The position numbers and the translations under genes were made by a program. Source: Isoptericola sp. BMS4 (lineage in GTDB: Bacteria > Actinomycetota > Actinomycetes > Actinomycetales > Cellulomonadaceae). Taken from it: a stretch of DNA of 64,000 nt. The stretch spans positions 4,099,092 to 4,163,091 of the forward strand of contig NZ_SIRP01000001.1 of NCBI RefSeq assembly GCF_011634835.1, in the 5' to 3' direction. This document shows, piece after piece, positions 4,622 to 41,881 of the stretch. The notes beneath the pieces were generated by a model. It searched no databases, was not told the origin of the DNA, and worked only from the letters and a program-made list of their open reading frames with translations. The first letter of the stretch is position 1, and each line of letters begins with the position of its first letter.

Positions 4622-4756
4622 AAGGGATCAGCCTACGTGCCGGCACCGACGCCCGACGCGCCCATGACATCCGTCACGGCCCCGCGGTGCGTCCCTCACG
4701 CGAACCGGTGATCGGCGGCACTACCTGCGGCGACGCCCGCTCGCCAGGCTGGAGCC

Positions 4757-12573: not shown

Positions 12574-13007
12574 GACGTGCCCGTACCGGCCCGTGCCGCC
12601 GTGCGGGAGAGCAGCTCGACGGACAGGGGCGCGATCGGGTGGGTGGTCACCGGGCGGGCGGGGTCCACCCAGACGTGCTCGGCGAGCTCGGCCCGGACGG
12701 TGGGCTCGAAACCGGCAGGCAGGTCGACGGCGTAGACGTGGGCGTCGACGACGTGGTCCGCCTCGTTGGCGGCGACCGCGGAGAACCGGCCCAGCGGACG
12801 GACCGCAGCGGGGTCGACGTCGAGAGCGATCTCCTCCGCGCACTCGCGCACGAGCGCGCCGACGGGGTCCTCGCCCGGCTCGATCTTGCCGCCCACCTGC
12901 ATGAAGGCGGTGGTGCCGTGCTTGCGGACGAGGAGCGCGCGCCCGTCGTCGCGGACGATCACCGCGGCGACGATGTGCAGCGTGGCGGGGGTCGTTCCGG
13001 TGGTCAT
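12570..13007 (-). CDS. NUDIX hydrolase
   Basis: Nudix box GGKIEPGEDPVGALVRECAEEIAL. Its ATG overlaps the dnaX stop (ATGA), implying co-transcription. Confidence 0.8.
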   Translation of the reverse strand: MTTGTTPATLHIVAAVIVRDDGRALLVRKHGTTAFMQVGGKIEPGEDPVGALVRECAEEIALDVDPAAVRPLGRFSAVAANEADHVVDAHVYAVDLPAGFEPTVRAELAEHVWVDPARPVTTHPIAPLSVELLSRTAARAGTGTS

Positions 13008-15586
13008 GGCTGCTCCGCCTGCTCGTCGATGATCGTGCCGCCGAGAACCTTCATCACGAGCGGGACGCCGACGAGGCCGGACGCCGTGATGTCGGGGTCG
13101 TCGTCGGAGGCCTCGTCGTAGTCCGCCGCGGGGGAGGCCGGTGCCGCCGCGGGCCTGGCCGCCGGTTCCTGCGTCCGGGCGCGGGATGCGGCGAGCGCCT
13201 GCTCGGCCGCCAGCCGGGCCGCCTGCGCCCCCGAGGGTGCCGCGGCGGGCGGACCCGGGTCGGGCGCGGGCTCCGGGGTGGGCTCCGCGACCGGGGCGGA
13301 CGACTCGTCCGGGGACCACGCCGCCGGCGACGACGCGACGGGGGACGACGGCGGGGCCGTGTCGGGCGCGGCGAGCGCGGCCGCCGCGTCCGGCCGGGCG
13401 GGTTCTGGTGCCGCCGCGGCCTCCGGCGGCACCGTGCGGACCGCGGCGGGGGGCGACCCCGCGAGCCATGCGGCATCCGCCTCGTCCGCCGCAGACCGTG
13501 CCGGGGCCACCCGCTCGGCGACCGCGACGCCCCCGCGCGGCACCTCGGCCGCGGACACCGTCGCGGCACCCTGCGCACCACCGCGCGGGTCGCGGCCCGT
13601 GACGCCGCTGCGTGGCTGTGCTTCTCCGGGCGGCGGGACGTCGGGCCACTCGGGTCGGTCGGGTTCCTCGGGAGCATCGTCACCCGGGTCGGGCCGGGCC
13701 GGAGCATCGTCAGCCTCCCGGGGGCTCGGGCCGGCGTCGAGCTCGACGATCTCGATCCGTACCGCGATGCCGAGCGCCTGGTAGACGGCGTCCGAGATGG
13801 TCTCCGGGCGCCCTTGACGCGCCAGCGCGACGACGGCCGGCGCGAACCCGAGGCGCAGCACGTCGCCCTCGAGGGTCAGCACCCGGGCGTTCTCGCCCAG
13901 GAACGTGGCGGCTCGCGGACTCGGGATCGCGGTGAGGACCTCGCGCCAGCGCCTCCGCACCACCTCGGAGGTGACGGCGCTCTCGGGAGCCGACGGCGCA
14001 GGATCGGGTGCGGTGGACGGCGCCTCGTCGACCGGCTCCGGTTCCGCCTGGTCGACCGGCTCGACCTCGACCGGCTCCGGTTCCGGCACGCGCTCCGGCT
14101 CACCGGACGGCGCTTCGTCGAACGGTTCGAGCTCGGGCGGCTCCTGATCGACCGGCGGCACCTCATCGGTCCGGTCCGCCTCGGCGGGTCCCGGTGCAGC
14201 AGGCGACGGTTCGACAGCCGGCTCCGGTGCTGCGGCCGGCTCCGGTTCTGCGGCCGGGCGCCGGCTCGCCTGCAGGGCGGCCCGGACGGCGGCGGCACCG
14301 CTCACCCCTACGGCCGCGCCCGTCGTCGCGGGTTCGGAGACGGTCCCCGCCGCCGGCTCCGGCGCCGAGGAACGGTCGTCGACGGACGCGGACGCGACGG
14401 GCGCACCACCCGCGGCGATGGCGCCGCGCTCCAGGCGGTCGATCCGCGCGGCGAGGCCCACCGTGCCGTCGTCGGCGCCCGGGAGCAGCAGGCGCGCGCA
14501 GAGCAGCTCGAGGTGCAGCCGCGGCGACGTGGCGCCGGTCATCTCCGTCAAGGCTGTGTTGACGAGGTCGGCGGCGCGCGAGAGCTCGGCCATCCCCAGC
14601 CGGGACGCCTGGGCGCGCATGCGCTCGAGCTGGTCCGGCGGCAGGCCTCGCAGCACCGCGTCGGCGGCGTCGCCGGACACCGCGATGACGATGAGGTCGC
14701 GCAGCCGTTCGAGCAGGTCCTCCACGAACCGCCGCGGCTCGTGGCCCGTGGCGACGATCTGGTCCACGACGCGGAAGATCGACGCGCCGTCGCGCGCGGC
14801 GAGCGCGTCCACGACGTCGTCGAGCAGCGTCGCGTGGGTGAAGCCCAGCAGGCCCACGGCCGTGTCGTACTCCACCGTGCCCTCGGTGGCCCCCGCGATG
14901 AGCTGGTCCAGCACCGACAGGGAGTCGCGCACGGAGCCGCCGCCCGCACGCGTGACCAGCGGCACCACGCCGCCACCCAGCCGGATGCCCTCGGCCTCGC
15001 AGAGCTGCTCCAGGTAGGGCCCGAGGACGTCCGGCGGCACGAGGCGGAACGGGTAGTGGTGGGTGCGCGAGCGGATGGTGCCGATGACCTTGTCCGGCTC
15101 GGTGGTCGCGAAGACGAACTTGATGTGCGGCGGGGGCTCCTCGACGATCTTGAGCAGCGCGTTGAACCCCTGCGGCGTCACCATGTGCGCCTCGTCGAGG
15201 ATGAAGATCTTGTACCGGTCGCGCGCCGGGGCGAACGTGGCCCGCTCCCGCAGGTCGCGCGCGTCGTCGACGCCGTTGTGGCTGGCCGCGTCGATCTCCA
15301 CGACGTCGAGCGACCCGGGGCCGCCGCGCGCCAGCTCGACGCACGAGGCGCACTCGCCGCACGGCACGGCGAGCGGGCTCTCGGGGGTGTTGCGCGCGCA
15401 GTTGAGGGTGCGCGCCAGGATGCGCGCCGACGTCGTCTTGCCGCAGCCGCGCGGGCCGGAGAACAGGTAGGCGTGATTGACGCGCCCGCTGCGCAGCGCC
15501 TGCATCAGCGGTGCGGTGACGTGCTCCTGGCCGATGACCTCGGCGAACGTCTCGGGCCGGTAGCGGCGGTACAGAGCGGTGGTCAC
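13004..15586 (-). CDS. dnaX: DNA polymerase III subunits gamma/tau
   Basis: MTTALYRRYRPETFAEVIGQEHV...AYLFSGPRGCGKTTSARILAR, a zinc module, and a long Pro/Ala/Glu-rich tau linker. Confidence 0.95.
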   Translation of the reverse strand: MTTALYRRYRPETFAEVIGQEHVTAPLMQALRSGRVNHAYLFSGPRGCGKTTSARILARTLNCARNTPESPLAVPCGECASCVELARGGPGSLDVVEIDAASHNGVDDARDLRERATFAPARDRYKIFILDEAHMVTPQGFNALLKIVEEPPPHIKFVFATTEPDKVIGTIRSRTHHYPFRLVPPDVLGPYLEQLCEAEGIRLGGGVVPLVTRAGGGSVRDSLSVLDQLIAGATEGTVEYDTAVGLLGFTHATLLDDVVDALAARDGASIFRVVDQIVATGHEPRRFVEDLLERLRDLIVIAVSGDAADAVLRGLPPDQLERMRAQASRLGMAELSRAADLVNTALTEMTGATSPRLHLELLCARLLLPGADDGTVGLAARIDRLERGAIAAGGAPVASASVDDRSSAPEPAAGTVSEPATTGAAVGVSGAAAVRAALQASRRPAAEPEPAAAPEPAVEPSPAAPGPAEADRTDEVPPVDQEPPELEPFDEAPSGEPERVPEPEPVEVEPVDQAEPEPVDEAPSTAPDPAPSAPESAVTSEVVRRRWREVLTAIPSPRAATFLGENARVLTLEGDVLRLGFAPAVVALARQGRPETISDAVYQALGIAVRIEIVELDAGPSPREADDAPARPDPGDDAPEEPDRPEWPDVPPPGEAQPRSGVTGRDPRGGAQGAATVSAAEVPRGGVAVAERVAPARSAADEADAAWLAGSPPAAVRTVPPEAAAAPEPARPDAAAALAAPDTAPPSSPVASSPAAWSPDESSAPVAEPTPEPAPDPGPPAAAPSGAQAARLAAEQALAASRARTQEPAARPAAAPASPAADYDEASDDDPDITASGLVGVPLVMKVLGGTIIDEQAEQP

Positions 15587-15646
15587 CGGAGCAACTCTAG
15601 ACGCCGGGGCCGACAGCCACGAGGCCGGTGCGCACGGGGCGCGACC

Positions 15647-21588: not shown

Positions 21589-22233
21589 CGGAGGTCCTTC
21601 CGGGCGGGCGCCGGGTGCGGCGCCGGAGAGGGCAGGCAGGGTGAGAGGGTCAGGAAGTGAGGCGGCGGCCACGGCCATCAGCTCGAGCCGGCGAGGAACA
21701 GGGTCCCGGGCGGACCGGGGCGACGACGACGTCGTCTGGGCACGATGCCGGTGAGGTCAGTCGAGCTCGCACATTCGACCCGCGGACACCGCGCGACAGC
21801 ACATCGCGCCGCGACGGCAGGTGCGCGCGGTCGTCGGTGCGGCGGGAGCGGTGCGGGGCATGGCCCCACAGGACCATCCGCGATCGACCTTCGCCAAGCG
21901 GGACGCCCGGGAATCTCGCTATGCGAGCCAAAATGCGTCCGCATCGCGAGAAGTGTGGCGTGGGCCACTCTCAGGGACGCAAAGGACCCCTCGCGCACCC
22001 ACCAGAGCTCACCTACCCTTGCTGCCTTCCGGCCCTGGGGGAGTTCGGCGAGATGATGCCGCACGAGGGGTCTGCCACCAGCCTAACCGAGACCCGCGCC
22101 GAGGAGAAAACCCGCGCCGCGCGCGGCGTCCCCGAGCGCGCCCGACCTGCCGATTTCCAGCCACCGGCCACCGTCCGGTAGGCTTCTGGGGCTGCCAGCG
22201 CACCGTTCTCGACGACGGGCGCCGGCTGCTCCA

Positions 22234-22318
22234 GGAGGATTCGCCTAGCGGCCTATGGCGCACGCTTGGAAAGCGTGTTGGGTTCACGCCCTCGGGGGTT
22301 CGAATCCCCCATCCTCCG
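22234..22318 (+). tRNA. tRNA-Ser (anticodon GGA)
   Basis: Acceptor stem GGAGGAT/ATCCTCC, 3-bp D-stem, anticodon loop TTGGAAA, long variable arm (class II), T-arm GGGGGTTCGAATCCCCC, discriminator G. CCA is not encoded. Confidence 0.85.
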
Positions 22319-22323
22319 CCGCA

Positions 22324-22362
22324 CGAAGGGGCCCGCACCGGTACGCCGGGGCGGGCCCCTTC
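22324..22362 (+). terminator. Hairpin immediately 3' of tRNA-Ser
   Basis: CGAAGGGGCCCGC-(13 nt)-GCGGGCCCCTTCG, 13-bp arms. Confidence 0.4.
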
Positions 22363-22376
22363 GCCGTCCCGGCCCC

Positions 22377-22463
22377 GATGCCGAACATGGCCCCCCTCGA
22401 TGCCGAACATGTGGTTGGTCCGGAACTCGGGGTTCCAGATCCGGACCAACCACATGTTCGGCA
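22377..22463. repeat. Palindromic repeat family A, copy 1 (24-bp perfect arms TGCCGAACATGTGGTTGGTCCGGA / TCCGGACCAACCACATGTTCGGCA with a 15-nt spacer, plus a partial extra arm)
   Basis: Perfect inverted repeat; related copies lie at 23301-23380 and 36464-36549. Confidence 0.6.
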
Positions 22464-22513
22464 GCCCGCCGAGGACCGAATTCTGATGGCGGCCCCTGCA
22501 CCGCCCGGCGACG

Positions 22514-23296
22514 ATGGCGCTCATGGACCGATCGTTCGACGAGCTCGTCGCCGAGGCAGTGGCCGCCCCGATGTCCGGCTGGGACTTCGGCTGGCTCGAG
22601 GGCCGCGCCACCGAGGAGCGCCCGTCGTGGGGCTACGCCGGCCTGCTGCACGCACGGCTCGCCACCGTCGACGCCGCCCTCGACCTGCAGACGGGCGGCG
22701 GCGAGGTGCTCGCCGCCGCCCCCGAGCTCCCCCGCCTGGCCGTCGCGACCGAGGGATGGCCGCCGAACGTCGCGGCCGCGACCGCGCTCCTGCACCCCCG
22801 TGGTGTCGCCGTCGTCGCGCACGACGACTCCGGGCCCGACCCCGCCCCGCTGCCGTTCGCCGACGCCGCGTTCGACCTCGTGACCAGCCGCCACCCCGTG
22901 GTGCCGCGGTGGGCCGAGATCGCCCGCGTGCTGCGACCCGGCGGCACCTACCTCGCGCAGCACGTCGGCCCTGCGAGCGTGTTCGAGCTGGTCGAGCACT
23001 TCCTCGGGCCGCAGCCCGACGAGGTGCGTCGCGGCCGGCACCCCGACGACGAGGTCGCCGCCGCGCGGGAGGCCGGGCTGGAGCTCGTCGACCTGCGCGC
23101 CGAACGGCTCCGGGTCGAGTTCCGTGACGTCGGCGCCGTCGTGTGGTTCCTGCGCAAGGTCGTGTGGTTGGTCCCGGGGTTCACCGTGGACGCCTACCGG
23201 CCCGCGCTGCACACCCTCCACGACCTGATCCGCACGGAGGGCCCGTTCGTCGCGCACTCCGCACGACACCTCGTGGAGCTGCGCCGCCCTGCGTGA
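22514..23296 (+). CDS. Class I SAM-dependent methyltransferase
   Basis: MALMDRSFDEL...LDLQTGGGEV (SAM motif I)...GGTYLAQHVGP. Confidence 0.8.
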   Translation: MALMDRSFDELVAEAVAAPMSGWDFGWLEGRATEERPSWGYAGLLHARLATVDAALDLQTGGGEVLAAAPELPRLAVATEGWPPNVAAATALLHPRGVAVVAHDDSGPDPAPLPFADAAFDLVTSRHPVVPRWAEIARVLRPGGTYLAQHVGPASVFELVEHFLGPQPDEVRRGRHPDDEVAAAREAGLELVDLRAERLRVEFRDVGAVVWFLRKVVWLVPGFTVDAYRPALHTLHDLIRTEGPFVAHSARHLVELRRPA

Positions 23297-23300
23297 ACCC

Positions 23301-23380
23301 ACCATGCCCTCCCTCGACGCCGACCATGTGGTAGAGCAGGCATTCCGTCCCTGAGTCCCTGATCAACCACATGTTCGGCA
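23301..23380. repeat. Palindromic repeat family A, copy 2 (degenerate left arm)
   Basis: ACCATGCCCTCCCTCGACGCCGACCATGTGGT...TGATCAACCACATGTTCGGCA, starting immediately after the methyltransferase stop. Confidence 0.5.
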
Positions 23381-23425
23381 CCGGTGTGCGGACGGTCCCG
23401 ACCGTGGACGGCTTCACCCCCTACG

Positions 23426-23731
23426 ATGGCGCGCATGATCTTCAAGGCCGTGGGGGACGGTCGCCCGTACCCCGACCACGGGCACGTGCGTGCCAAGGAC
23501 TGGGTGGACGTGCCCCCGCGGCAGGTCCGCCTCGACGAGCTCGTGACGACCAAGCGCACGCTCGACCTCGACCACCTGCTCGCCGAGGACTCCACGTTCT
23601 TCGGCGACCTGTTCGCCCACGTCGTCGAGTACCAGGGCACGCTCTACCTCGAGGACGGCCTGCACCGCGCCGTGCGCGCCGCGCTGCAGCAGCGCCCGGT
23701 GCTGCACGCTCGCGTGCTCACGGTCCGGTGA
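23426..23731 (+). CDS. Conserved hypothetical protein (101 aa)
   Basis: In-frame ATG with a non-repetitive composition (MARMIFKAVGDGRPYPDHGHVRAKDWVDVPP...). No family was recognised. Confidence 0.45.
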   Translation: MARMIFKAVGDGRPYPDHGHVRAKDWVDVPPRQVRLDELVTTKRTLDLDHLLAEDSTFFGDLFAHVVEYQGTLYLEDGLHRAVRAALQQRPVLHARVLTVR

Positions 23732-25798: not shown

Positions 25799-26020
25799 GG
25801 TGCTCCGTCCGTCGGGCCCGGGATGACGGGCCGTGCTCGCCGTCGCCGCTCGCCCGTGAACGTCCGACGCAGATTGCCGCCGCACAGCGTAGCGGCACGC
25901 CCCCTCCGGGCCGACACCTCGGCCGGGGCTGCCGGGCCGAAACCTCGGCCAGGGCCGTGAGGTCGGCAGGCCCTCGTCATGGTTCTCTCACGGACCGACT
26001 CGCTCACGCCCCTGCCCGGT

Positions 26021-28756
26021 TCAGGTCAGGCGGTCGACTACCTGCAGCCGGTGGCCGATGAGGGCGAGGTTCTGGATGGTGGCGAGGCTGCACTGGGCGG
26101 CGTCGTTGGTGGACAGGGTCCTGGCCTCGTCGACGGGCGCGAGGACGGCGGGCGGGTCGATGCGGACCGGGTGGAACGCCTCCTCCCCCATGAACTCGCC
26201 GCCGTCGTAGTAGGCGCGCCAGGCGCGGTCCGCCAGCCCGTCGTCGCCGAGCCGGTGCGCGGCGTAGGCCGCGAGCCGGGAGTGCGCCTGCTCCAGGTTC
26301 GTGCCCGTCAGCGCCGTGCCGACCTCGGCCTCCTGCTCGGCGGGGGTGGCGAGGTAGAGGCGGCAGTACTGCAGCCAGGCCTCACGGAAGCCCGGCGCCT
26401 CGACCAGCCCGGCGTCGACCAGCGACACGAGCTCGGAGCAGATCTCGACCAGGCCGAAGACGGCGGACAGGTGCGAGACGACGACGCGGTCGCGGGTGGT
26501 GTCGAAGCGCCCGGTGTCGAGGTCGTACAGCGCCTCCCCAGTGAGGAAGCCGCGCGGCAGGGCGCCGATGTCGGTCATGGTGCCGACCAACCGGTCGCGG
26601 GAGTGCTCGTTGCCGGTGATCTCCCAGTCCGCGAGCCAGGTCGCGGCCAGCGCGCTCCAGTCGGTGCCCAGCCCGACGGCGAGGGCGTCGCGGCGCGGGC
26701 GGTAGGTGGCGGCGTCGGGCCGCACCTTGCGCGTGGGGTCGAGCCCCAGGAAGTTCCGGTCGGAGTCGCGCAGCTCCAGCATGAGGTCGCGCGTGTGCTC
26801 GTCGCCGGTGAGGAAGTAGTGCGGCCGCCGGTACGCGGGCGTCGAGATGCGCACCTGCTTGGCGCTGCACCCCCAGTGCTGCACGTTGTGCCGGCTGCCG
26901 AGGCCCTGCCACGGGCCGGCGTGGTAGACGTCCACGTCGCCCGTGTGGCGGGTCATGCGCTCCGCGAGCCGGAACACGTCCGCCCGGCCGGTGCGCAGGA
27001 ACGACGTCCACAGCCACAGGTCCGGCGACAGCTCCGAGTTGTCCCACGCGTACCCGCCGACGTCGTAGCGCCAGGTGTGCCGGTCGGGGTCGTAGGCGTG
27101 CATCACGTCGCCGTGGTTCCAGAAGCCGTACCACGACCGCTGGTCCACCTGGCCGACGTAGAAGTCGAGCAGGGTCTCGAGGCGGTCCTCGAGCCCGGCC
27201 CGCTCCGGCGTGCCACGGTCCACGAGGTCCCAGTCGCCCAGGACGCCGGTGCCGTGCAGCGCCTCGGGCGTCGGGACGAGCTGCGGGCGGACGGCGGTTC
27301 CCGCGGCGAGCCGGGCGAGCGTCCCGGCGTCCGGGGTGCCGGGGCAGGCGGTGACGGTCAGCTCGTGGGTGCGGCCGATGCCGTGCGCGCTGCCGAACCC
27401 GGGCTCGTAGTCCTCGTACGTGATCTCGAGGGCGTCGAGCTGGTCGTCGTACGTGTCCTGCCCGAGGCCGTCGTGGTAGAAGCGCAGGTCCATGGGCGCC
27501 GCGTCGGGCGACCAGAGCCACGTCGTCAGCGTGCCGACGTCGGACGACGCCCCCTCGACGTCGATCCCGGTGGGGTGCGACTGCCAGAAGCCGGTGAGCC
27601 CGACGGCGAGCCCGCCGCCGGTGTCGCCGAGGTAGCCGAGCCCCTCGGACCGCGTGCCCTGGGCGACGTCGATCCACGGGCGGTCCGGCGCGGTGCGCTT
27701 GTGCACCGTGAAGCCGTGCGCGGTGGGCTGGCGCAGCGACCAGTCCGACCAGGTGGGCACCCACCGCAGCCGGTCGGAGACGCGCGTGTCCCACGTGTCC
27801 AGGGGCGGGGCGGGCCGGCCCGCGACCTGGGCGGCGCGGACGTCGGCGCCCGGGTCGCGGCGCAGCCCCGTCACCCCCTGGACGGCCTCGCTCAGGACAC
27901 CGCCGTCCGCGCCGGCGAGGCGCACGTGCCGGTCGTACGGGGCGGCGCGCAGCGGGACGTCGAACCGCAGGCCGAGCGACGACAGGAAGTCGCGCTCGGG
28001 GTCGCCGTCCCAGACGAACGAGTGCACCACACGGAACGTCGGCGCCCCGGCCGCGAGCACGAGCCGCACGGTGAACGGCAGCCAGCCGGGCGCGCCGTCG
28101 TCGTGGGACGACGCCACGTCGCGGTGCAGGCCGGTGATCCGCACGACGGCGCGCACCGGCCCGGCCTGCTCGACGACGACGTCGTCCACCACCCCGACGG
28201 CGTCGCGGCGGGCGCGGTGGTCGGGCTCCGGGTGGTCCTGCCGGCTGGAGACGAAGCGGCCCGCGCGGGCGACCTCGACCCGCTCGTGCGCCGCGCCGAC
28301 CTGCACGGAGCGCACCACGTCCGGCCCGGAGCGTCCGACCACGACGACGCACGCGCCGGTGTCGACGACCACCTCGTCGGCGCGCTCGGCGACCGTGGCC
28401 CGAGGGCCGGCGTCGGCGTCCTCCGTCGCGCCACCGGTCACCCGGTACGACGCGCTCGCCGGCGCCGTCGCGCCCAGCGCCACGCCCGCCCACTTGACAC
28501 TGCCGTCGGGCCAGGTCGCCAGCGGCCAGGTCTGCGCCGCCGCGGGGGCGCCGTCGGCGTCCACGACGGCGAGGGTGCCGGCGTCGCGCACCGCGCCCGG
28601 GCGCAGCGGGACACCGCAGGTGACGCCGCCCAGGGTCAGGTCGGGCGCGACGTCGTCGAGCCAGCGCAGGGGGACGTCGACGCCGTCCCGGGGACGGCCG
28701 TCGGCAGGGCTGTCCTCGTCGGTGCGGGTACCGGTCGGGAGCGTGGTGGTGGTCAT
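26021..28756 (-). CDS. Large YetA-like protein (911 aa), putative polysaccharide-active enzyme of the rhamnogalacturonan-type cluster
   Basis: Resembles Bacillus YetA-family proteins. It is last in the operon with DUF1961, SGNH and sugar ABC genes. Start ATG is MTTTTLPTG. Confidence 0.55.
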   Translation of the reverse strand: MTTTTLPTGTRTDEDSPADGRPRDGVDVPLRWLDDVAPDLTLGGVTCGVPLRPGAVRDAGTLAVVDADGAPAAAQTWPLATWPDGSVKWAGVALGATAPASASYRVTGGATEDADAGPRATVAERADEVVVDTGACVVVVGRSGPDVVRSVQVGAAHERVEVARAGRFVSSRQDHPEPDHRARRDAVGVVDDVVVEQAGPVRAVVRITGLHRDVASSHDDGAPGWLPFTVRLVLAAGAPTFRVVHSFVWDGDPERDFLSSLGLRFDVPLRAAPYDRHVRLAGADGGVLSEAVQGVTGLRRDPGADVRAAQVAGRPAPPLDTWDTRVSDRLRWVPTWSDWSLRQPTAHGFTVHKRTAPDRPWIDVAQGTRSEGLGYLGDTGGGLAVGLTGFWQSHPTGIDVEGASSDVGTLTTWLWSPDAAPMDLRFYHDGLGQDTYDDQLDALEITYEDYEPGFGSAHGIGRTHELTVTACPGTPDAGTLARLAAGTAVRPQLVPTPEALHGTGVLGDWDLVDRGTPERAGLEDRLETLLDFYVGQVDQRSWYGFWNHGDVMHAYDPDRHTWRYDVGGYAWDNSELSPDLWLWTSFLRTGRADVFRLAERMTRHTGDVDVYHAGPWQGLGSRHNVQHWGCSAKQVRISTPAYRRPHYFLTGDEHTRDLMLELRDSDRNFLGLDPTRKVRPDAATYRPRRDALAVGLGTDWSALAATWLADWEITGNEHSRDRLVGTMTDIGALPRGFLTGEALYDLDTGRFDTTRDRVVVSHLSAVFGLVEICSELVSLVDAGLVEAPGFREAWLQYCRLYLATPAEQEAEVGTALTGTNLEQAHSRLAAYAAHRLGDDGLADRAWRAYYDGGEFMGEEAFHPVRIDPPAVLAPVDEARTLSTNDAAQCSLATIQNLALIGHRLQVVDRLT

Positions 28757-29415
28757 GACAGCGGGGTCACCTCGAGGTCGCGGTAGTGGGCGACGAGCGG
28801 GGACATCTGCCGGAACCCGATCCGGCCGGCGCCCAGGGGCTCCTCGTCGTGGAACGTGAACAGGGTCAGGTCGTCGATCGCGAACGTGACGTCGCCGCCG
28901 CGCTTGGTGACGCGCACGCGGTAGTGGCCGTCGGCGTCCTCGGGCCCGGGCAGCGGGTCGGCGCCCTGCGCCACCAGCCGGAAACCCGGGCTCTTGCGCA
29001 GGTTGCACGTGCGGAACCGCTTCTCGGTCGGCCACTTGCGGCGCAGGTACGACACGTGCAGCGTCGACACGTCGCCCGAGTGGTACTGCGGGTAGTACCC
29101 CGTGCGCTCGGCCAGCGACGGGTCGAAGAGGTCGCGCCCCTCGGTCCCGGTGGCGGCGAAGAACAGCATCGCGAGGCCGTCGCCCGCGAGGGGGCGGAAG
29201 TCCCAGGAGATCTCCACGTCCGCGGCGAAGACCTCGGGGCACCAGTACGTGAAGTGCGCGTGGTCGCCGCGACCGTCGGCGACGAGCGCGGCCTCGTCGG
29301 CGGTGCTGCGCAGCACGAGGCCGCCGTCCCGGTGCTCGGCGCCCACGGGACCCTCGGCGACCCAGCCGGCGAGGTCGCCGGGCCCGGCGAGCGGGTTGCG
29401 GTAGCGGCCCGTCAC
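28753..29415 (-). CDS. DUF1961 (YesU-like) family protein
   Basis: GGLVLRSTADEAAL...HFTYWCPEVFAADVEISWDF...YYPQYHSGDVSTLHVSYLRRKWPTEKRFRTCNLRKSPGFRLVAQG. GTG start overlapping the upstream stop. Confidence 0.65.
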   Translation of the reverse strand: MTGRYRNPLAGPGDLAGWVAEGPVGAEHRDGGLVLRSTADEAALVADGRGDHAHFTYWCPEVFAADVEISWDFRPLAGDGLAMLFFAATGTEGRDLFDPSLAERTGYYPQYHSGDVSTLHVSYLRRKWPTEKRFRTCNLRKSPGFRLVAQGADPLPGPEDADGHYRVRVTKRGGDVTFAIDDLTLFTFHDEEPLGAGRIGFRQMSPLVAHYRDLEVTPLS

Positions 29416-30116
29416 GGCTGCACCACCCACGCCCCGAGCGGCTCCGCGCCGTCGTGCGCGCCGTCGATCGACGCCAGCGCCTCCGCGACGTAGGCCGCGA
29501 CCGCGCGGGCGCCCGCCGTCGTGAAGTGGGTGTTGTCCTTGCCGAGCGCGTCGTCGACGGGCAGGCCCGCCTTCGCCGCCGCGCCGTGCGGGAACAGCGC
29601 GGCCGACGCTTCCTCGCCCAGCCACCGGTACAGCCAGCGCGTGAGCACGGTGAGGTCGATGACCGGGACGTCGAGCTCGTCGCCGAGCGCCCGCACCGCC
29701 GCGGGGTACGGGCCGTGCGACCAGCGCAGCGCGCCGTCGTCGCCGAAGAGCCGCCGCTCCACGCTGGTGGCCAGCACCGGGCGGGCGCCGGCGGCCCGCG
29801 CCTCGGCCACGAAGTCGGCGAGCCGGCGCCGGTACCCGCCGTCGGCGGCGAGCTCCTCGGGCTCCTTCTGGTCGTTGTGGCCGAACTGGATCACGACGGT
29901 GTCGCCGGGCCGCAGCTGGGCGACCAGGGCGTCCCAGCGCCCCTCGGCGCGGAAGGACGCCGTGGTCGCCCCGCCGATCGCGTGGTTGCGCACCTCCGCG
30001 TCGACGAGGGCGGCGAGCTCGTCGCCCCAGCCGAGCAGCGGGATCGTGTCGTGGCCGGAGGTGCGGCCGTCGTCGGTGGGGGCGACGGTCGAGTCGCCCG
30101 CGAGATGGATGGTCAT
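29412..30116 (-). CDS. SGNH/GDSL hydrolase (rhamnogalacturonan acetylesterase-like)
   Basis: MTIHLAGDSTV (GDS block)...GGATTASF...VVIQFGHNDQ...DNTHFT. Confidence 0.8.
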   Translation of the reverse strand: MTIHLAGDSTVAPTDDGRTSGHDTIPLLGWGDELAALVDAEVRNHAIGGATTASFRAEGRWDALVAQLRPGDTVVIQFGHNDQKEPEELAADGGYRRRLADFVAEARAAGARPVLATSVERRLFGDDGALRWSHGPYPAAVRALGDELDVPVIDLTVLTRWLYRWLGEEASAALFPHGAAAKAGLPVDDALGKDNTHFTTAGARAVAAYVAEALASIDGAHDGAEPLGAWVVQP

Positions 30117-31000
30117 CAGCCCTTCACGCTCCCGATCAGCATGCCCTTGGCGAAGTGCTTCTGCAGGAACGGGTAGGCCAGGAGCACGGGGATCGTCGCG
30201 ACGATCACGACGGCGAACTTGATGCCCTGCGCGGGCGGGGGCACGTCGGCGTTGATGTCCTCCGCCGACATCTGCGCGGACGCCGTCACCTGGCGCAGGA
30301 TCATCTGCAGCGTCCACTTGCTCGTGTCCGACAGGTACAGCAGTGGCGACATGTAGTCGTTCCAGATGCCGACGGCGTAGAACAGCGCGAACGTCGCCAG
30401 CACGGGCTTGGACAGCGGCAGCACCACGTGCCGCAGCACCTGCAGCTCGTTCGCGCCGTCGATCGTCGCCGACTCCTGGAGCTCGATCGGCAGCTGCTGG
30501 AAGAAGTTCTTGATGATGATGAGGCTGAACGGGTTGATCGCCATCGGCAGGAACAGCGCCCAGTACGTGTCGAGCAGCCCGAGCTGCTTGACGACGAGGA
30601 ACATCGGGATCATGCCCGCGCTGAACACCATCGCGAAGACGACGAGCATCATGATGGTGCGCCGGCCCGGCAGATCGACCTTCGACAGCGGGTAGGCCAT
30701 GAGCGCCGTGAGCCCGAGCTGGACCAGCGTGCCGACGAACGTGACGACGACGGTGGTGACGAACGCACGCAGGAAGATGTCCGAGGACAGGATCGACGCG
30801 TACGAGTCCGTCGTGATCTCGTGCGGCCACAGGAAGAACGGCCGCGTGGTGATCTCGTACTCGGTGGCCAGCGACCCGGCGAGCACGTACACGAACGGGA
30901 CGACGGCGAGCAGGCCGACCGCGACCAGCAGCAGGACGTTGACGACGTCGAACGCCCGGCCGGCCCTCGTGTTGAACCGTTGATAGGTCGTCGAGGCCAT
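30116..31000 (-). CDS. Carbohydrate ABC transporter permease (CUT1; YesQ/LplC-like)
   Basis: MalG-type permease with the EAA loop region (ESATIDGANELQVLRHVVLPLSKP). Confidence 0.9.
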   Translation of the reverse strand: MASTTYQRFNTRAGRAFDVVNVLLLVAVGLLAVVPFVYVLAGSLATEYEITTRPFFLWPHEITTDSYASILSSDIFLRAFVTTVVVTFVGTLVQLGLTALMAYPLSKVDLPGRRTIMMLVVFAMVFSAGMIPMFLVVKQLGLLDTYWALFLPMAINPFSLIIIKNFFQQLPIELQESATIDGANELQVLRHVVLPLSKPVLATFALFYAVGIWNDYMSPLLYLSDTSKWTLQMILRQVTASAQMSAEDINADVPPPAQGIKFAVVIVATIPVLLAYPFLQKHFAKGMLIGSVKG

Positions 31001-31974
31001 CAGAAGATCCCTTGCTGGTTGAAGCGCTTCGCGAGCCAGTTGGTGCCGAAGATGAGGATCACGCCCACGATCGCCTTCGACAGCCCGACGGCGGTCGAGT
31101 AGCTGTAGGCACCCTGCTCGATGCCGGTGAAGTACACGTAGGTGTCGAAGACGTCAGCCACCGACCGGTTGAGCGCGTTCGACATGAGGTAGATCTGCTC
31201 GAACCCGGTGTTGAGGATCTCGCCGGTCTGCAGGATCAGCATGACGACGATGGTCGGCCGGATCGCCGGAAGAGTGATGTGCCAGGTGCGCTGCCAGCGC
31301 CCGGCGCCGTCGATGATCGCCGCCTCGTACTGCTCCTGGTCGACGCTCGCGAGCGCGGCCAGGAAGATGATCGTCCCCCAGCCGGTGGACTTCCAGATCG
31401 TCTGCAGCAGGATCAGCGGGCGGAACCAGTCCGGGTCGGTGAGGAAGTCCGTGCTGGTGCCGAAGATCCCGTTGAGGGCCGTCCACAGCGGCCCGGTGCC
31501 GACGGCGAACAGCAGCCCGGTGAGCGAGACCACGACGGTCCACGACAGGAAGTGCGGGATGTAGACCAGTGTCTGCACCGTGCGCTTGAGGATCGTCAGC
31601 CGCAGCTCGTTGAGCAGCAGCGCCAGCACGATCGTCAGCGGGAACGCCACCAGCAGGCCGAGGGCCGCGAGGATCAGGGTGTTCGTCAGCAGCCGCGGGA
31701 AGTCCGGGTTGGAGAAGAAGTCGGTGAAATGCTTCAGGCCCACCCACTCGCTGCCCTGGATGCCGAGGAACGGCACGTAGTCCTTGAAGGCGATCTGCGC
31801 GCCGTACATCGGCCAGTACTGGAAGAGCAGGAAGTAGACGACGCCCGGGAGCATCATCAGGAACAGCCACTTGTACCGGGCCATCCTGCGGCCGAGCGTG
31901 CGCTGACGGCGGGGCGGTGCGGGTGGTGGCGACGGTGCCGCGGGCGCGGCCCGGACGTCGGCGACGGTGGACAC
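31000..31974 (-). CDS. Carbohydrate ABC transporter permease (CUT1; YesP/LplB-like)
   Basis: MARYKWLFLMMLPGVVYFLLFQYWPMYGAQIAFKDY...EAAIIDGAGRWQRTWHITLPAIRP. GTG start preceded by GAAGGAGA. Confidence 0.85.
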   Translation of the reverse strand: MSTVADVRAAPAAPSPPPAPPRRQRTLGRRMARYKWLFLMMLPGVVYFLLFQYWPMYGAQIAFKDYVPFLGIQGSEWVGLKHFTDFFSNPDFPRLLTNTLILAALGLLVAFPLTIVLALLLNELRLTILKRTVQTLVYIPHFLSWTVVVSLTGLLFAVGTGPLWTALNGIFGTSTDFLTDPDWFRPLILLQTIWKSTGWGTIIFLAALASVDQEQYEAAIIDGAGRWQRTWHITLPAIRPTIVVMLILQTGEILNTGFEQIYLMSNALNRSVADVFDTYVYFTGIEQGAYSYSTAVGLSKAIVGVILIFGTNWLAKRFNQQGIF

Positions 31975-32063
31975 GCGGGTCTCCTTCGGTCTCGCGGGGT
32001 GCCGGGCGGCCGGCGGTCGGCCGCCCGGCACCCGCCGTGGGGGTCGGTCGAGGCGGTGAGCCG

Positions 32064-33608
32064 CTACCGGCCCTCGTACTTCGCGTTGACCTCCTCGATG
32101 ACGGCGTCGCCACCGGACTCGCGCCACCGCTGGATCGCCGCGTCTAGGCCGGCGTCGTCGATCTGCCCCGCGAGGTACTGCACGCGGGCGTCCGCCATGA
32201 TCAGGCCGAGCTGGGCACCCTGGGTCATGGAGGTCTCGGAGACGATCGGCGCGGCCGGGTTGAACACCGCGGTCTCGAGGCCCTTCGCCTGCAGCTCGAG
32301 GCGCTCGTCCGCGAGCTCCTCGTCGTACTTCGTCTCCGGCTTCGCCTTGTACGTCTTGTCACCGGCGACGTTCATGCCGAGCTGCGCCCACGAGCCCGCG
32401 ACCTGCTCCTGGTACTCGGCCTGGTCCTCCGGGACCACCAGGTAGCCCTCGTCGTCCACGGTGTAGGTGTCGCCCTCGATGCCGTTGGTGATGAGGTTCT
32501 GCCCCTCGGCGGTGTTGAGAGTGTCGAGGACCTCGAGGACCTGCTTGAGCTGCTCCTCCGTCTTCACGCCCGACTTGGTGACGGCGAGGAACCCGGAGTA
32601 GCCCTCCGTCGGCAGGGTGTACTTGCCGTTCGGGCCCTCGAGCTGGTCGACGAGCGCCACCTTCTGGTCGTACGTCTTCGGGTCCTCGTCCTTGAAGAGC
32701 CCGGCGAGCTGCGAGGCTCGCGACTGGACGTCGATGATGATGCCGCCCTTGCCGTTGAGGAACGGCTCGTTCCACGTCGCCGGGTCCATCGTGGCGTAGT
32801 CGGGGTTGATGTAGCCGTTCTCGACGATCTCGCGCTCGAACTCGACGGCGTCACGCCACTCCGGGGTGGTGAACGACGGGACGAGCTCCCCGCCGTCGTC
32901 CTTCCACACGTTGCCCGCGCCATACCAGGTCTCGATGGAGTCGTAGGGGCTGGAGCTGCCGATGCCGCCGGGCCACTGCGGCACGATGAGGCCGTACGTG
33001 TCGTCCTTCCCGTTCCCGTCGGGGTCGTCCTCGGTGAAGGCCCGCGCGACCTCCATGAGGTCGTCCGTCGTCGCGGGCTCCTCCATCCCCAGGTTCTTCA
33101 GCCAGTCCTTGCGCACGATCACGCAGGTGCGGATGACGTCGCGCGCCCGGTAGACCCCGTAGACCTTGCCGTTGACGCTGGCGGCCTCCTGGACCTCGGG
33201 GTTCTCCGGCACCAGGTTGGGGTAGTCGCCCGAGGCGAGGTACTCGGTGAGGTCCCAGAAGCCGCCCGCCTCCGCCGTGGAGACGAAGCTCTGGTCCTTG
33301 CCCTGGATCACCATGACGTCGGGGATGTCGTCGCCGGCGAGCACGACGTTGGTCCTCTCGCCGTACTCGGCGTTCGGCACCCACTGGACATCCATGTCCA
33401 CCCCGGTGAGCTCGTCGAGCGCGGCGCCGACGGCGTCGTCGTCCTCGGGGGGCGTCGCGGAGAAGTACGGGGACATGAAGGTCAGCGACTCCAGGTCGCC
33501 GCCCTCTCCTCCGCCGTCGTCACCGGACCCGCCGCTGCAGGCGGAGAGCACCAGGCTCCCCGTCGCGAGGAGGGCGAGCGGGGCTGCCAGCCGTCGTGTA
33601 CGCATCAT
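32064..33608 (-). CDS. Extracellular solute-binding lipoprotein (CUT1; YesO/LplA-like)
   Basis: MMRTRRLAAPLALLATGSLVLSACSGG lipobox, about 500 aa, family-1 solute-binding protein. RBS GAAAGGA. Confidence 0.85.
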   Translation of the reverse strand: MMRTRRLAAPLALLATGSLVLSACSGGSGDDGGGEGGDLESLTFMSPYFSATPPEDDDAVGAALDELTGVDMDVQWVPNAEYGERTNVVLAGDDIPDVMVIQGKDQSFVSTAEAGGFWDLTEYLASGDYPNLVPENPEVQEAASVNGKVYGVYRARDVIRTCVIVRKDWLKNLGMEEPATTDDLMEVARAFTEDDPDGNGKDDTYGLIVPQWPGGIGSSSPYDSIETWYGAGNVWKDDGGELVPSFTTPEWRDAVEFEREIVENGYINPDYATMDPATWNEPFLNGKGGIIIDVQSRASQLAGLFKDEDPKTYDQKVALVDQLEGPNGKYTLPTEGYSGFLAVTKSGVKTEEQLKQVLEVLDTLNTAEGQNLITNGIEGDTYTVDDEGYLVVPEDQAEYQEQVAGSWAQLGMNVAGDKTYKAKPETKYDEELADERLELQAKGLETAVFNPAAPIVSETSMTQGAQLGLIMADARVQYLAGQIDDAGLDAAIQRWRESGGDAVIEEVNAKYEGR

Positions 33609-33648
33609 CGTCCTTTCGTGAGTGCGCGTCATCGGTCACTCGTGTCGG

Positions 33649-34374: not shown

Positions 34375-34708
34375 GTCACCGTCCCCATCTCCATCGATGC
34401 ACGGGAACGGCCACCAGCTCCCCCGCCCGCGATCCTCGGCGGCGAGGTGTCCAGGTAAGCCCTTCCCCGTTGAATGGATTCACCGTAGGGGGCGAACTTC
34501 ACCCCGTCAACCCCGGACCCGAACCTCGCGGGCGGGGCGGGACAGCACGTCGCACGGCCTGGCCGCCGGGGCCGCCTCCGACCGTCCGCACGGGCCGCTC
34601 CGGTGGCGTGCGCGTCTCCCGGGAGGCCGGGCGGGACGCCGGACGCACGTCGACCGCCATGGGCGGGTGGCTGCACCCGACGCCCACGGCGCGACGTCCG
34701 GACGCGGA

Positions 34709-36463: not shown

Positions 36464-36549
36464 CTTCTCCGGCACCCCTGTGGTGCCGAACATGTGGTTG
36501 ATCCCGTTCTCGGCAACTCGATCCCGGACCAACCACATGTTCGGCAGCG
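36464..36549. repeat. Palindromic repeat family A, copy 3
   Basis: TGCCGAACATGTGGTTGATCCCG-(15 nt)-TCCCGGACCAACCACATGTTCGGCA, in a divergent intergenic region. Confidence 0.6.
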
Positions 36550-36558
36550 AGGATCCGC

Positions 36559-36828
36559 ATGCTCGACAGGTGGCGGAGCGGGAGCGATACCCTCGGGCCC
36601 GTGGGCAACGTCCTGTGGAAGAGCGTCGCGACCGTCGTCGGTGCCGCGGCGGTCGCCCTCGTCATGCTCTGGGTCGTCCTGCGCGGGCGCGCCTGGGCCT
36701 GGATCCCCTTCATCATCGCCTTCGGCATCTTCGTGCGCGAGCTGCGCTACCTGCAGCGTCGGCGGCGCCCGCCGGACGCCCGCTTCGACGAGCCTCGCCG
36801 GGAGCGCGGCCCCGACCGCCGGGCGTAG
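36559..36828 (+). CDS. Small hypothetical membrane protein (89 aa, two predicted transmembrane helices)
   Basis: An ORF beginning 10 bp after repeat A copy 3; hydrophobic core with an Arg-rich tail. Weak support. Confidence 0.35.
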
Positions 36829-41545: not shown

Positions 41546-41881
41546 GAGGTCGGGGAGGGAATGCGGCTGTGGCATCCTGCGTTGTGCAGGACGCCGCCGG
41601 GACCTCCGGCGGCCACAGACACGCAACGTACGTGCTCCGGGGTCGGTGAGATTCCGAGCCGGCGGTGACAGCCCGCGACCCGCGCCTCCTCCGCGAGGCC
41701 GGTTGACCTGGTGGAACTCCAGGGCCGACGGTCAGAGTCCGGATGGGAGGAAGCACGTGCGGCACGCGCCCGGCGACGGGTGGGTGCCGCCGGGCGCCGT
41801 GTCGCCGGCGAGGGCCCCGCGCTCCCGGCGGACGGCCGCCCCTCACCCCGGCAGCCGCTCGACGGACCGGGAGAGTGAACG

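What the first reader, a model, noticed from the sequence alone, without database searches (positions are those of the whole stretch)
22377..23380. Perfect 24-bp-arm palindromic repeat element (family A) on both sides of a SAM methyltransferase gene, immediately downstream of tRNA-Ser
Between tRNA-Ser(GGA) with its hairpin (22234-22362) and the methyltransferase gene there is a perfect inverted repeat, TGCCGAACATGTGGTTGGTCCGGA-N15-TCCGGACCAACCACATGTTCGGCA, with an extra partial arm upstream. A degenerate copy of the same element starts 5 bp after the methyltransferase stop. A third copy sits at 36464-36549. Perfect 24-bp arms in 73% GC DNA, in three copies, are not expected by chance. The arrangement tRNA gene, repeat, single cargo gene, repeat looks like a MITE/REP-type element or the hairpin ends of a small mobile unit that captured or delivered the methyltransferase. 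No integrase or transposase is present, so any mobility would need a trans-acting enzyme (IS200/IS605-type TnpA enzymes act on such hairpins). Because the element is palindromic, translated ORFs across it mimic each other on both strands (PNMWLVR...TNHMFG); this is an artefact of the symmetry, not coding.
Basis: seen in the sequence. Interest (0 to 1): 0.7.

Follow-up and report, generated by a model that had tools for sequence, protein, structure and literature searches.

The report
REPIN-like palindromic repeat family in Isoptericola
The perfect palindrome is real and is one of three copies of a roughly 60-bp repeat family found in one actinobacterial lineage; it comes and goes independently of the methyltransferase gene, and in relatives it repeatedly brackets a nuclease gene that may act on it.

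Summary
There are three copies: 22401-22463 (perfect 24-bp arms), 23318-23380 and 36484-36546. The "cargo" reading is not supported. The methyltransferase is a syntenic resident in Isoptericola relatives that have no palindromes, and a close relative (MTase 95% identical, same gene order) lacks all the copies.

The palindromes belong to a family specific to Promicromonosporaceae. I found 16 strong copies in about 234 kb from 9 genomes. Each is 60-61 bp, with conserved outer arms (GCCGAACAKGYRGTT), a variable but complementary centre, and often a "partial arm" 22 nt upstream. Changes are strictly Watson-Crick on both arms, with no G·U excess. Copies are more alike within a genome than between genomes. 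Most lie 1-37 nt from stop codons.

This is the REPIN architecture, but no RAYT or IS200-type gene was seen. Instead, at three independent loci the palindromes bracket genes encoding an AbiEi-like winged-helix domain fused to a Vsr/DUF559-type nuclease. One bracketed gene is inverted in I. cucumis.

I propose, by inference only, that this dimeric nuclease is the trans-acting partner. The window has no such gene, so its copies are solo elements.

The parts
22380..22390 (+). Partial arm of copy 1 (GCCGAACATGG). It is a direct repeat of the outer part of the left arm, 22 nt upstream of it. It aligns with GCCGCTCAGGTGG in the relative L020, which lacks the palindrome.
22401..22463 (.). Copy 1. A 63-bp palindrome with perfect 24-bp arms and a 15-nt centre. 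It lies between the tRNA-Ser terminator hairpin and the MTase start.
23298..23308 (+). Partial arm of copy 2 (CCCACCATGCC). It starts 2 nt after the MTase stop codon. The same motif precedes copies in L028.
23318..23380 (.). Copy 2, a decayed palindrome (19 of 22 stem pairs Watson-Crick). Two positions differ from copy 1 on both arms. It lies between the MTase stop and the VapB-like gene.
36484..36546 (.). Copy 3, a palindrome with 19 of 20 stem pairs Watson-Crick. It lies in the divergent intergenic region between the Rv2466c-like gene (start at 36444, minus strand) and a small membrane-protein gene (start at 36601). The orthologous region in L012 lacks it, and excising 64 nt restores colinearity.
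36555..36566 (-). Partial arm of copy 3 (TCGAGCATGCGG read on the minus strand), 8 nt from the palindrome. Copy 3 is therefore in the opposite orientation to copies 1 and 2.
22514..23296 (+). Context only, not part of the element: class I SAM methyltransferase (Methyltransf_11). Alternative starts are at 22487 and 22523. It is a resident, syntenic gene.
22234..22363 (+). Context only: tRNA-Ser(GGA) at 22234-22320 and its own GC-rich hairpin at 22324-22363.

Best explanation
SHOWN. The three palindromes are solo members of a repeat family restricted to Promicromonosporaceae (Isoptericola, Cellulosimicrobium). The unit is a 60-61-bp palindrome, often preceded by a direct repeat of the arm's outer ~11 nt (the partial arm) and an 8-11 nt spacer. 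The outer 15 bp of each arm are conserved (GCCGAACAKGYRGTT), the inner ~30 bp vary freely but stay complementary, and the length is fixed. This is the REPIN architecture. Copies are gained and lost independently of neighbouring genes, so the methyltransferase is not cargo. Copies persist at orthologous sites across species, decay to half-palindromes, are more alike within a genome than between genomes, and can bound an inversion.

INFERRED. The trans-acting partner is a family of proteins with an AbiEi-like winged-helix N-terminal module fused to a Vsr/DUF559-type PD-(D/E)xK nuclease. At three independent loci the genes for these proteins are bracketed by the palindromes. I propose the protein binds as a dimer, as the Vsr-like homing endonuclease I-Bth0305I does on its ~60-bp footprint. 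The two DNA-binding modules would sit on the conserved outer arms and the nuclease dimer over the unconstrained centre. Nicking or cleavage followed by templated repair (from the other arm or from another copy) would then keep the arms perfectly symmetrical, homogenise copies within a genome, seed new copies next to arm-like sequences, and promote recombination between neighbouring copies. Effects on transcripts, such as 3'-end hairpins just after stop codons, are likely by-products or secondary functions.

The window contains no such gene, so its copies would depend on a gene elsewhere in the genome.
For: Reality and family: (perfect arms, z = -8). Searches show the same outer arms with unrelated but complementary centres in C. 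composti, Isoptericola sp. F-RaC21 and I. peretonis. Covariance-model hits give 16 strong copies (33-87 bits) in about 234 kb.

Symmetry: 91.6% of cells paired, 15 of 26 pairs changed on both sides, 42 doubly changed cells, and 0/500 shuffles reaching the observed covariation score. Stems hold 283 Watson-Crick pairs against 2 G·T, 6 A·C and 7 other mismatches. Two copies are perfect through the centre.

Indel independent of the MTase.

Homogenisation: within-genome identity is 0.83 against 0.68 between genomes. Paralogues flanking one gene are 0.80-0.90 identical, against 0.67-0.82 for orthologous sites.

Decay: half-palindromes are present in L024 and L025.

Inversion: the segment bounded by two copies is inverted in I. 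cucumis.

Association with the nuclease gene: the palindromes flank the gene at the glf/AT3 locus in four Isoptericola genomes. They also flank paralogues at two unrelated loci that were fetched only because of the gene: L028 (both sides, plus a third copy 0.5 kb away) and L029 (strong at the 3' end, weak upstream). In those 42 kb, 3 of 4 strong copies lie within 100 nt of the gene.

Precedents: I-Bth0305I is a homodimer with a ~60-bp footprint (PMC3239194). AbiEi and Rv2827c bind inverted repeats (PMC7319586). For REPINs, conserved ends, a variable hairpin spacer and compensatory changes are described, and rayt genes are always flanked by REPs (PMC3116915, PMC2817692).
Against: No binding or cleavage has been tested; the link to the nuclease rests on adjacency at three independent loci.

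The window has no homologue of the gene, and I could not obtain the rest of its genome, so the presence of a partner there is assumed.

AbiEi-type domains are known autoregulators, so the upstream palindrome (54-123 nt before the start codon) could simply be an operator.

Perfect symmetry can arise without any dedicated enzyme, through intrastrand template switching at quasi-palindromes (my own knowledge).

Fourteen of 16 copies sit 1-37 nt from a stop codon, as expected for terminator or stabiliser hairpins.

No target-site duplication or consistent target sequence was found, so the copying step is undefined.

The gene in L002 is frameshifted, yet its palindromes are near perfect.
Confidence: 0.5

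Rival explanations
1. These are purely cis-acting hairpins at gene ends. They would be a Promicromonosporaceae counterpart of the mycobacterial TRIT motif or of REP as an mRNA 3'-end stabiliser or bidirectional terminator. They would spread and be kept symmetrical by ordinary recombination and template switching, with no dedicated enzyme. The neighbouring nuclease genes would be incidental, or would use the hairpins as operators.
For: Fourteen of 16 copies lie 1-37 nt from a stop codon, and several lie between convergent genes. The stems are very stable. Copies persist at orthologous sites across species with compensated changes. TRIT is a conserved palindrome present in 147 copies at gene ends, restricted to one genus and mostly bidirectional (PMC3152330). 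A requirement to function on both strands would also explain the absence of G·U pairs.
Against: There is no U-tract and no terminator-like site. Copy 3 lies between two divergent start codons and copy 1 lies after a tRNA that has its own hairpin. A 15-bp conserved arm sequence, a fixed 60-bp length and a recurring partial arm are not needed for a hairpin to function. Enrichment next to one gene family at unrelated loci is unexplained. In M. tuberculosis, predicted terminators including TRIT overlapped only 2-4% of mapped 3' ends (bioRxiv 10.1101/2022.06.01.494293).
Confidence: 0.25
2. The palindromes are operator sites of the AbiEi-like DNA-binding protein, forming a small regulon. The conserved arms would be half-sites for a dimeric repressor and the nuclease domain would be irrelevant or inactive.
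For: AbiEi and Rv2827c autoregulate by binding inverted repeats in their own promoters (PMC7319586). Upstream copies lie 54-123 nt before the start of the bracketed gene, and window copies lie 39-54 nt before start codons. There are three arm motifs per element, two direct and one inverted.
Against: Copies also sit at the 3' end of the gene and between convergent stop codons, where there is no promoter. The nuclease motif residues are invariant in 39 sequences. An operator does not need a complementary 30-bp centre, nor would it show presence/absence polymorphism and within-genome homogenisation.
Confidence: 0.1
3. One reading: the two repeats are the hairpin ends of a small mobile unit that carried the methyltransferase to the tRNA-Ser locus, moved in trans by an IS200/IS605 TnpA or a RAYT.
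For: The layout is repeat, single gene, repeat next to a tRNA gene. I. dokdonensis lacks the MTase and both repeats at this locus.
Against: The MTase sits at the same locus without repeats in I. cucumis, I. hypogeus and L020. Copy 3 is a solo insertion elsewhere. No Y1/HUH transposase appears in any locus table or in the window. There is no GTAG/CGTC head.
Confidence: 0.03
4. These are integron-like attC sites bounding gene cassettes. GCCGAAC...GTTCGGC resembles the inverse core RYYYAAC and the core GTTRRRY.
For: The outer 7-mers are one mismatch away from the attC consensus. The ends are conserved and the centre is variable and structured. A single gene lies between two sites.
Against: The GTT is not invariant: GCTCGG occurs in L026 and GGTCGG in L025. 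The stems are fully paired, with no unpaired central spacer and no extrahelical bases. No integrase was seen. The bracketed genes are syntenic residents. Many copies lie between convergent genes.
Confidence: 0.02

Closest known systems
[quoted passage not shown] 2010, PMC2817692)
   Same: Both have a symmetrical unit made of two conserved inverted ends and a less conserved spacer, in which length and hairpin capacity are what is kept. Both show frequent compensated changes, an extragenic location close to gene ends, singlet remnants, similarity within a genome, and an associated nuclease gene bracketed by copies.
   Different: There is no GT(A/G)G or CGTC head. The bracketed gene is not an IS200/IS605-like HUH tyrosine transposase but an AbiEi-like winged helix fused to a Vsr/DUF559 PD-(D/E)xK nuclease. 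The host is an actinobacterium. Copy density seems lower, at roughly one per 15-40 kb in the sequence sampled. The bracketed gene has several paralogues per genome.
TRIT, the Tuberculosis Rho-independent terminator motif (Gardner et al. 2011, PMC3152330)
   Same: Both are genus-level, sequence-conserved palindromes of high-GC actinobacteria, scattered in many copies right at gene termini and mostly bidirectional. In both cases the conserved stem sequence prompted the idea of a binding factor.
   Different: The sequence family is different (no Rfam hit) and so is the lineage. No associated gene has been reported for TRIT. Two of the three window copies are not at the 3' end of a protein-coding gene.
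I-Bth0305I and the EDxHD (Vsr-like) homing endonucleases (Taylor et al. 2011, PMC3239194)
   Different: I-Bth0305I is encoded in a phage group I intron, and its specificity lies in the central 14 bp. Here it is the centre that varies and the outer arms that are conserved. There is no intron or intein, and the DNA-binding module is of the AbiEi type, not NUMOD.
AbiEi / Rv2827c antitoxins of type IV AbiE systems (PMC7319586, PMC3985639)
   Same: The N-terminal ~200 residues match AbiEi in sequence and fold. AbiEi proteins bind inverted repeats.
   Different: No AbiEii (DUF1814) toxin gene lies next to any of the genes (locus tables). The C-terminal addition is a nuclease.
MITEs such as Correia elements and ERIC
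   Same: These too are small non-coding intergenic repeats with inverted ends and presence/absence polymorphism between relatives, and they affect neighbouring transcripts.
   Different: No target-site duplication and no parent IS with matching ends were seen. Here the whole element is a near-perfect palindrome, not just its termini.

Membership tests
REP/REPIN-RAYT | Extragenic palindromic repeat present in many copies per genome | tested here: inconclusive
   There are 16 strong copies in about 234 kb from 9 genomes, 3 of them in the 64-kb window. Whole-genome counts could not be made. An exact two-arm pattern found only one match per representative genome, but the arms vary, so that scan undercounts.
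REP/REPIN-RAYT | REPIN architecture: two conserved inverted ends, a less conserved spacer of fixed length that forms a hairpin, and compensatory changes | tested here: met
   The outer 15 bp are conserved, the inner ~30 bp vary, and the length is 60-61 bp in 15 of 16 copies. Fifteen of 26 pairs carry changes on both sides.
REP/REPIN-RAYT | Conserved GT(A/G)G (or CGTC) head next to the palindrome | tested here: not met
   The flanks of 12 copies show no such tetranucleotide.
REP/REPIN-RAYT | Associated RAYT gene (IS200/IS605-like HUH Y1 transposase) flanked by two REPs | tested here: not met
   The gene flanked by copies at three loci is AbiEi-like plus Vsr/DUF559. No Y1_Tnp domain appears in any locus table or window ORF. 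A RAYT elsewhere in these genomes cannot be excluded.
MITE | Target-site duplication and a parent IS with the same terminal inverted repeats | tested here: not met
   At site 3 the insert is exactly the palindrome (64 nt) and no duplicated flank is present. No IS was seen in the sampled DNA. A genome-wide search was not possible.
Integron attC site | RYYYAAC / GTTRRRY cores, an unpaired central spacer, extrahelical bases, and an IntI integrase | tested here: not met
   The cores are one mismatch off and the GTT is not invariant. The stems are fully paired. No integrase is present (Pfam and the locus tables).
Canonical intrinsic terminator | GC-rich hairpin followed by a U-tract, downstream of a gene | tested here: not met
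   No terminator-like site was found around the copies. The sequence after the stems is GC-rich. The position near stop codons is met for 14 of 16 copies.
TRIT (Mycobacterium) | Homology to the TRIT covariance model; restricted to Mycobacterium | not testable with these tools
   No TRIT model was available. Rfam gave no hit at gathering score and only miRNA-like hairpin noise at permissive thresholds. The resemblance is functional and positional only.
AbiE type IV toxin-antitoxin (for the bracketed gene) | AbiEi antitoxin gene in an operon with an AbiEii (DUF1814) nucleotidyltransferase toxin gene | tested here: not met
   The AbiEi-like N-terminal module is present, but there is no DUF1814 neighbour in L024-L030.
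Vsr/DUF559-type PD-(D/E)xK nucleases (for the bracketed gene) | Vsr-like fold with conserved acidic and histidine catalytic residues | tested here: met

The most novel reading that the evidence does not exclude
A second, convergent kind of "palindromic repeat plus resident nuclease" system. REPIN-like 60-bp palindromes in Actinobacteria would be maintained, copied and recombined not by an HUH tyrosine transposase (RAYT) but by a dimeric AbiEi-winged-helix/Vsr-type nuclease whose genes sit between two copies. The wider protein family is large (4,210 clusters at 50% identity with E<=1e-10), so other actinobacterial lineages may each have their own cognate palindromes. That could conceivably include orphan motifs such as the mycobacterial TRIT, and it would give a function to the many unexplained DUF559/AbiEi-fusion genes.
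Probability: 0.3. Interest if true: 0.8.

Novelty: new variant of a known kind. Interest (0 to 1): 0.55.

Why it matters
REP/REPIN elements with their RAYT genes are the textbook case of a bacterial repeat family living with a domesticated nuclease, and they are essentially a proteobacterial story. A family with the same architecture and dynamics, in a high-GC actinobacterium and paired with a nuclease of a different fold, would show that this lifestyle evolved more than once.

It would also offer a testable function for a large group of uncharacterised AbiEi-DUF559 proteins.

In addition, it would bear on the open question of why conserved-sequence hairpins such as TRIT sit at actinobacterial gene ends.

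On the practical side, these palindromes cause local rearrangements (an inversion is seen here) and spurious mirrored ORFs, and both matter for annotation.

Tried and rejected
1. Exact two-arm pattern scans of genome, metagenome and viral collections. These gave only three real genomes. All other hits were foldback or chimeric palindromes whose flanks are also palindromic. The arms later proved variable, so these scans undercount, and the initial impression of an extremely rare element was wrong.

2. Rfam at gathering and at permissive thresholds: no family, only miRNA-hairpin noise.

3. BLASTN against plasmids and phages: chance hits only.

4. Literature search for the arm sequence: primers only.

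5. LexA/SOS-box, parS, dif and other operator consensus sequences were considered from memory and rejected, because the arm does not fit them.

6. attC reading: rejected (see membership test).

7. RNA-level structure: disfavoured, because mismatches show no G·U excess (2 G·T against 6 A·C and 7 other).

8. A weak model hit at window 58902-58960 lies inside a coding region and has different arms, so I treated it as chance.

9. L020 site 1 was first read as an older nested family member (arms 13/16 and 14/16). Once the partial arm was recognised in other genomes, the left arm-like motif is better read as the orthologue of the window's partial arm. Whether L020 lost the palindrome or the window gained it remains unresolved.

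10. Looking up the window's own VapB-like protein found nothing, so the source genome was not identified.

11. Profile search of solved-structure sequences with the nuclease family: no hits. Only fold comparison worked.
Full report
**1.
Copy 1 (22401-22463) is a perfect inverted repeat with 24-bp arms around a 15-nt centre. It folds at -52.8 kcal/mol, z = -8.1 against shuffles. An 11-nt partial arm, GCCGAACATGG, lies at 22380-22390. Copy 2 (23318-23380) and copy 3 (36484-36546) share the outer boxes GCCGAMCATGTGGT and ACCACATGTTCGGC at an identical 47-nt start-to-start spacing. The six best matches to the arm 14-mer in the 64-kb window are exactly these six arms, against a background of about 5 loose matches expected. 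tRNA-Ser(GGA), its own hairpin, an SRP RNA and an FMN riboswitch were confirmed. No Rfam family covers the palindromes.

**2. The methyltransferase is not cargo.**
Pfam annotation gives this order: NlpA lipoprotein, SRP RNA, tRNA-Ser, copy 1, a Methyltransf_11 protein, copy 2, a VapB-like (PF23719) protein, LytR_C, and a permease. Copy 3 lies between a divergent Rv2466c-like gene and a small membrane-protein gene.
- The host belongs to Promicromonosporaceae and is closest to Isoptericola.
- The MTase has orthologues at the same locus in I. cucumis and I. hypogeus (MTase, GH6, VapB-like). It also occurs in a contig, L020, whose MTase is 95% identical and whose gene order equals the window's.
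- None of these loci has a palindrome, apart from a weak model hit at site 1 in L020 (see section 9).
- I. dokdonensis lacks both the MTase and the palindromes.
- Testing every possible excision showed that removing 57, 52 and 64 nt at sites 1, 2 and 3 (essentially the palindromes) restores colinearity with L020 and L012.

So the repeats themselves are the polymorphism, at three separate sites. No transposase or integrase is encoded in the window.

**3. The family.**
An exact two-arm pattern found the element in Cellulosimicrobium composti and two Isoptericola species. These have the same 15-bp outer arms, unrelated but perfectly complementary centres, and the same length. The remaining collection hits were foldback artefacts.

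Covariance models built from these copies then found diverged members whose arms also vary (GCCGAACAGGCGGTT, GCCGAACAGGCAGTT, GCCTACCATGCAGTT, GCCGAACATGCCCTGG). The exact scans had therefore undercounted.

In about 234 kb of non-redundant DNA from nine genomes there are 16 strong copies.
- Fifteen are 60-61 bp long.
- On an 11-copy alignment, 91.6% of cells pair, 15 of 26 pairs show changes on both sides (42 cells), and no shuffle reaches the observed covariation.
- Stems contain 283 Watson-Crick pairs and 15 mismatches, of which only 2 are G·T. Two copies are perfect 60-bp palindromes through the centre.

This is strict DNA-type symmetry, not an RNA signature. It would, however, also be expected if both strands had to fold.

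**4. Dynamics.**
- Copies at the glf/gene X junction are retained at the orthologous site in four Isoptericola genomes, while their sequence drifts symmetrically.
- Half-palindromes remain where one arm has been lost.
- Copies within a genome are more alike (mean 0.83) than copies between genomes (0.68). Two copies flanking one gene are more alike (0.80-0.90) than orthologous copies in different species (0.67-0.82). This indicates conversion or recent spread within genomes.
- In I. cucumis the 1.1-kb segment between two copies is inverted relative to both flanks. The breakpoints fall in the intervals that contain the palindromes.
- The element is asymmetric. A direct repeat of the arm's outer ~11 nt lies 8-11 nt outside one arm in window copies 1, 2 and 3 (on the opposite side for copy 3), and in L003, L028 (three copies) and L029.

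**5. Position.**
Fourteen of 16 copies lie 1-37 nt from at least one stop codon, and several lie between convergent genes. Copy 1 follows a tRNA that already has a hairpin. Copy 3 lies between two start codons. No U-tract terminators or sigma-70-type promoters are predicted at the window copies.

**6. An unexpected partner.**
In Isoptericola sp. F-RaC21 two copies 1.2 kb apart bracket a gene with no Pfam hit. Its homologues are confined to Promicromonosporaceae and Cellulomonadaceae. At that locus the gene is syntenic, and it is bracketed by copies or their remnants in three more genomes.

I then fetched two paralogues at unrelated loci, chosen only because of the gene.
- In Isoptericola CP182942 the paralogue between a luciferase-like gene and acpS has a copy on each side and a third copy 0.5 kb away.
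- In a Cellulosimicrobium genome the paralogue between an S9 peptidase gene and copD has a strong copy at its 3' end and a weak one upstream.

In those 42 kb, three of the four strong copies lie within 100 nt of the gene. By my estimate this has a probability of about 0.001-0.004 under random placement.

The protein family has these properties:
- An AbiEi_4 winged-helix N-terminus (30/39 members) and a REase_MTES_1575/DUF559 C-terminus, with invariant D244, E258, D260, G261 and H265.
- A confident AlphaFold model (pLDDT 91.5). Its N-terminal ~200 residues match AbiEi.
- No AbiEii toxin gene next to any member.
- A large wider family (252 clusters at E<=1e-30 and 4,210 at E<=1e-10).

The window has no homologue, so its three copies are solo elements.

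**7. Interpretation.**
The architecture and dynamics are those described for REPINs: conserved inverted ends, a variable spacer whose length and hairpin capacity are preserved, frequent compensated changes, singlet remnants, and a nuclease gene always flanked by copies (PMC3116915, PMC2817692). The family fails two defining tests for REP/RAYT membership. It has no GTAG/CGTC head, and the bracketed gene is not an HUH Y1 transposase. I therefore file it as working like a REPIN family but not as a member of REP/RAYT.

My proposed mechanism is inference. A dimer of the AbiEi-Vsr protein would bind the two conserved outer arms at their fixed spacing and place its nuclease dimer over the free-varying centre. 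This would resemble I-Bth0305I, a homodimer that contacts about 60 bp (PMC3239194), and AbiEi proteins, which bind inverted repeats (PMC7319586). Cleavage and templated repair would then explain the perfect symmetry, the homogenisation within genomes, the new copies and the inversion.

The main rival is that these are cis-acting gene-end hairpins like the mycobacterial TRIT (PMC3152330), kept symmetrical by template switching, with the nuclease gene association reflecting operator use. The two readings are not exclusive.

**8. Verdict.**
- The [quoted passage not shown] part is not supported.
- The added value is the family definition, its evolutionary behaviour, and a candidate partner of a new enzyme class.

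Confidence is about 0.85 for the shown part and about 0.4 for the proposed partner and mechanism.

**9. Limits.**
- The window's genome was not identified.
- Whole-genome copy counts were impossible.
- The association rests on three independent loci.
- The direction of change (gain or loss) at sites 1 and 2 is not resolved, because L020 retains an arm-like motif at site 1.
- No insertion signature such as a target duplication was found.

Noticed in passing
L026 9867-11186 (I. cucumis) compared with L024, L025 and L002: The 1.1-kb segment carrying the AbiEi-Vsr gene and its promoter is inverted relative to glf and the AT3-SGNH acyltransferase gene in I. cucumis only. The breakpoints fall in the two intervals that hold the palindromes.
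   Followed up: yes
window 22511-22525 and 23423-23437: The 15-nt motif ACGATGGCGC(T/G)CATG is repeated at the starts of the MTase and VapB-like genes. CTACGATG upstream of the VapB-like gene is conserved in L012, L016, L018 and L020. It looks like a TACGAT -10 box 7 nt before a leaderless ATG (23435).
   Followed up: partly
window 23296-23435 compared with L021 and L022: I. cucumis and I. hypogeus have a GH6 glycoside hydrolase gene (minus strand) between the MTase and the VapB-like gene. The window and L020 lack it, L012 has GH6 but no MTase, and I. dokdonensis has neither. This tRNA-Ser-proximal locus is a rearrangement hotspot, and copy 2 sits exactly at the junction.
   Followed up: partly
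window 25979-34479: About 8.5 kb is absent between the permease and luciferase-like genes in the relative L012. It carries a PcRGLX-like protein gene (26021-29242, minus strand), ABC sugar-transporter permease genes, a solute-binding protein gene and a DUF624 gene. GC content drops to 0.66 at 30-32 kb.
   Followed up: no
window 41629-41759: An FMN riboswitch (89 bits) lies upstream of a PF04973 (NMN_transporter/PnuC-like) gene at 41879-42592, presumably a riboflavin-family transporter.
   Followed up: no
window 21979-22075 (minus strand): Bacterial small SRP RNA (69 bits), next to tRNA-Ser. dnaX (13004-15646) and recR (4022-4627) lie further along, the usual actinobacterial neighbourhood.
   Followed up: no
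L002 4976-6053: The AbiEi-Vsr gene of Isoptericola sp. F-RaC21 is split into two reading frames (a frameshift, annotated as a 240-aa fragment). Even so, its two flanking palindromes are among the most perfect seen. Its ORF also reads through one palindrome.
   Followed up: partly
L020 22-104: In the palindrome-free relative, GCCGCTCAGGTGGTCGCC and GGCGACCGCCTGTCCGGC form an imperfect inverted repeat. Both arms match the family consensus (13/16 and 14/16) and the centre is 37 nt (R2: 20.9 bits). It is either a decayed member or the ancestral target. The left motif is orthologous to the window's partial arm.
   Followed up: partly
L004-L010 and L023: Most metagenome and viral contigs that matched the two-arm pattern are foldback (chimeric) assemblies whose flanks are palindromic as well. 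This is a caution for pattern scans that target palindromes.
   Followed up: yes
L028 11537-11596: A third palindrome lies between acpS and glmS, so acpS is also bracketed by two copies, just as the MTase is in the window. Clusters of copies 0.5-1.2 kb apart recur (window, L002, L026, L028).
   Followed up: partly
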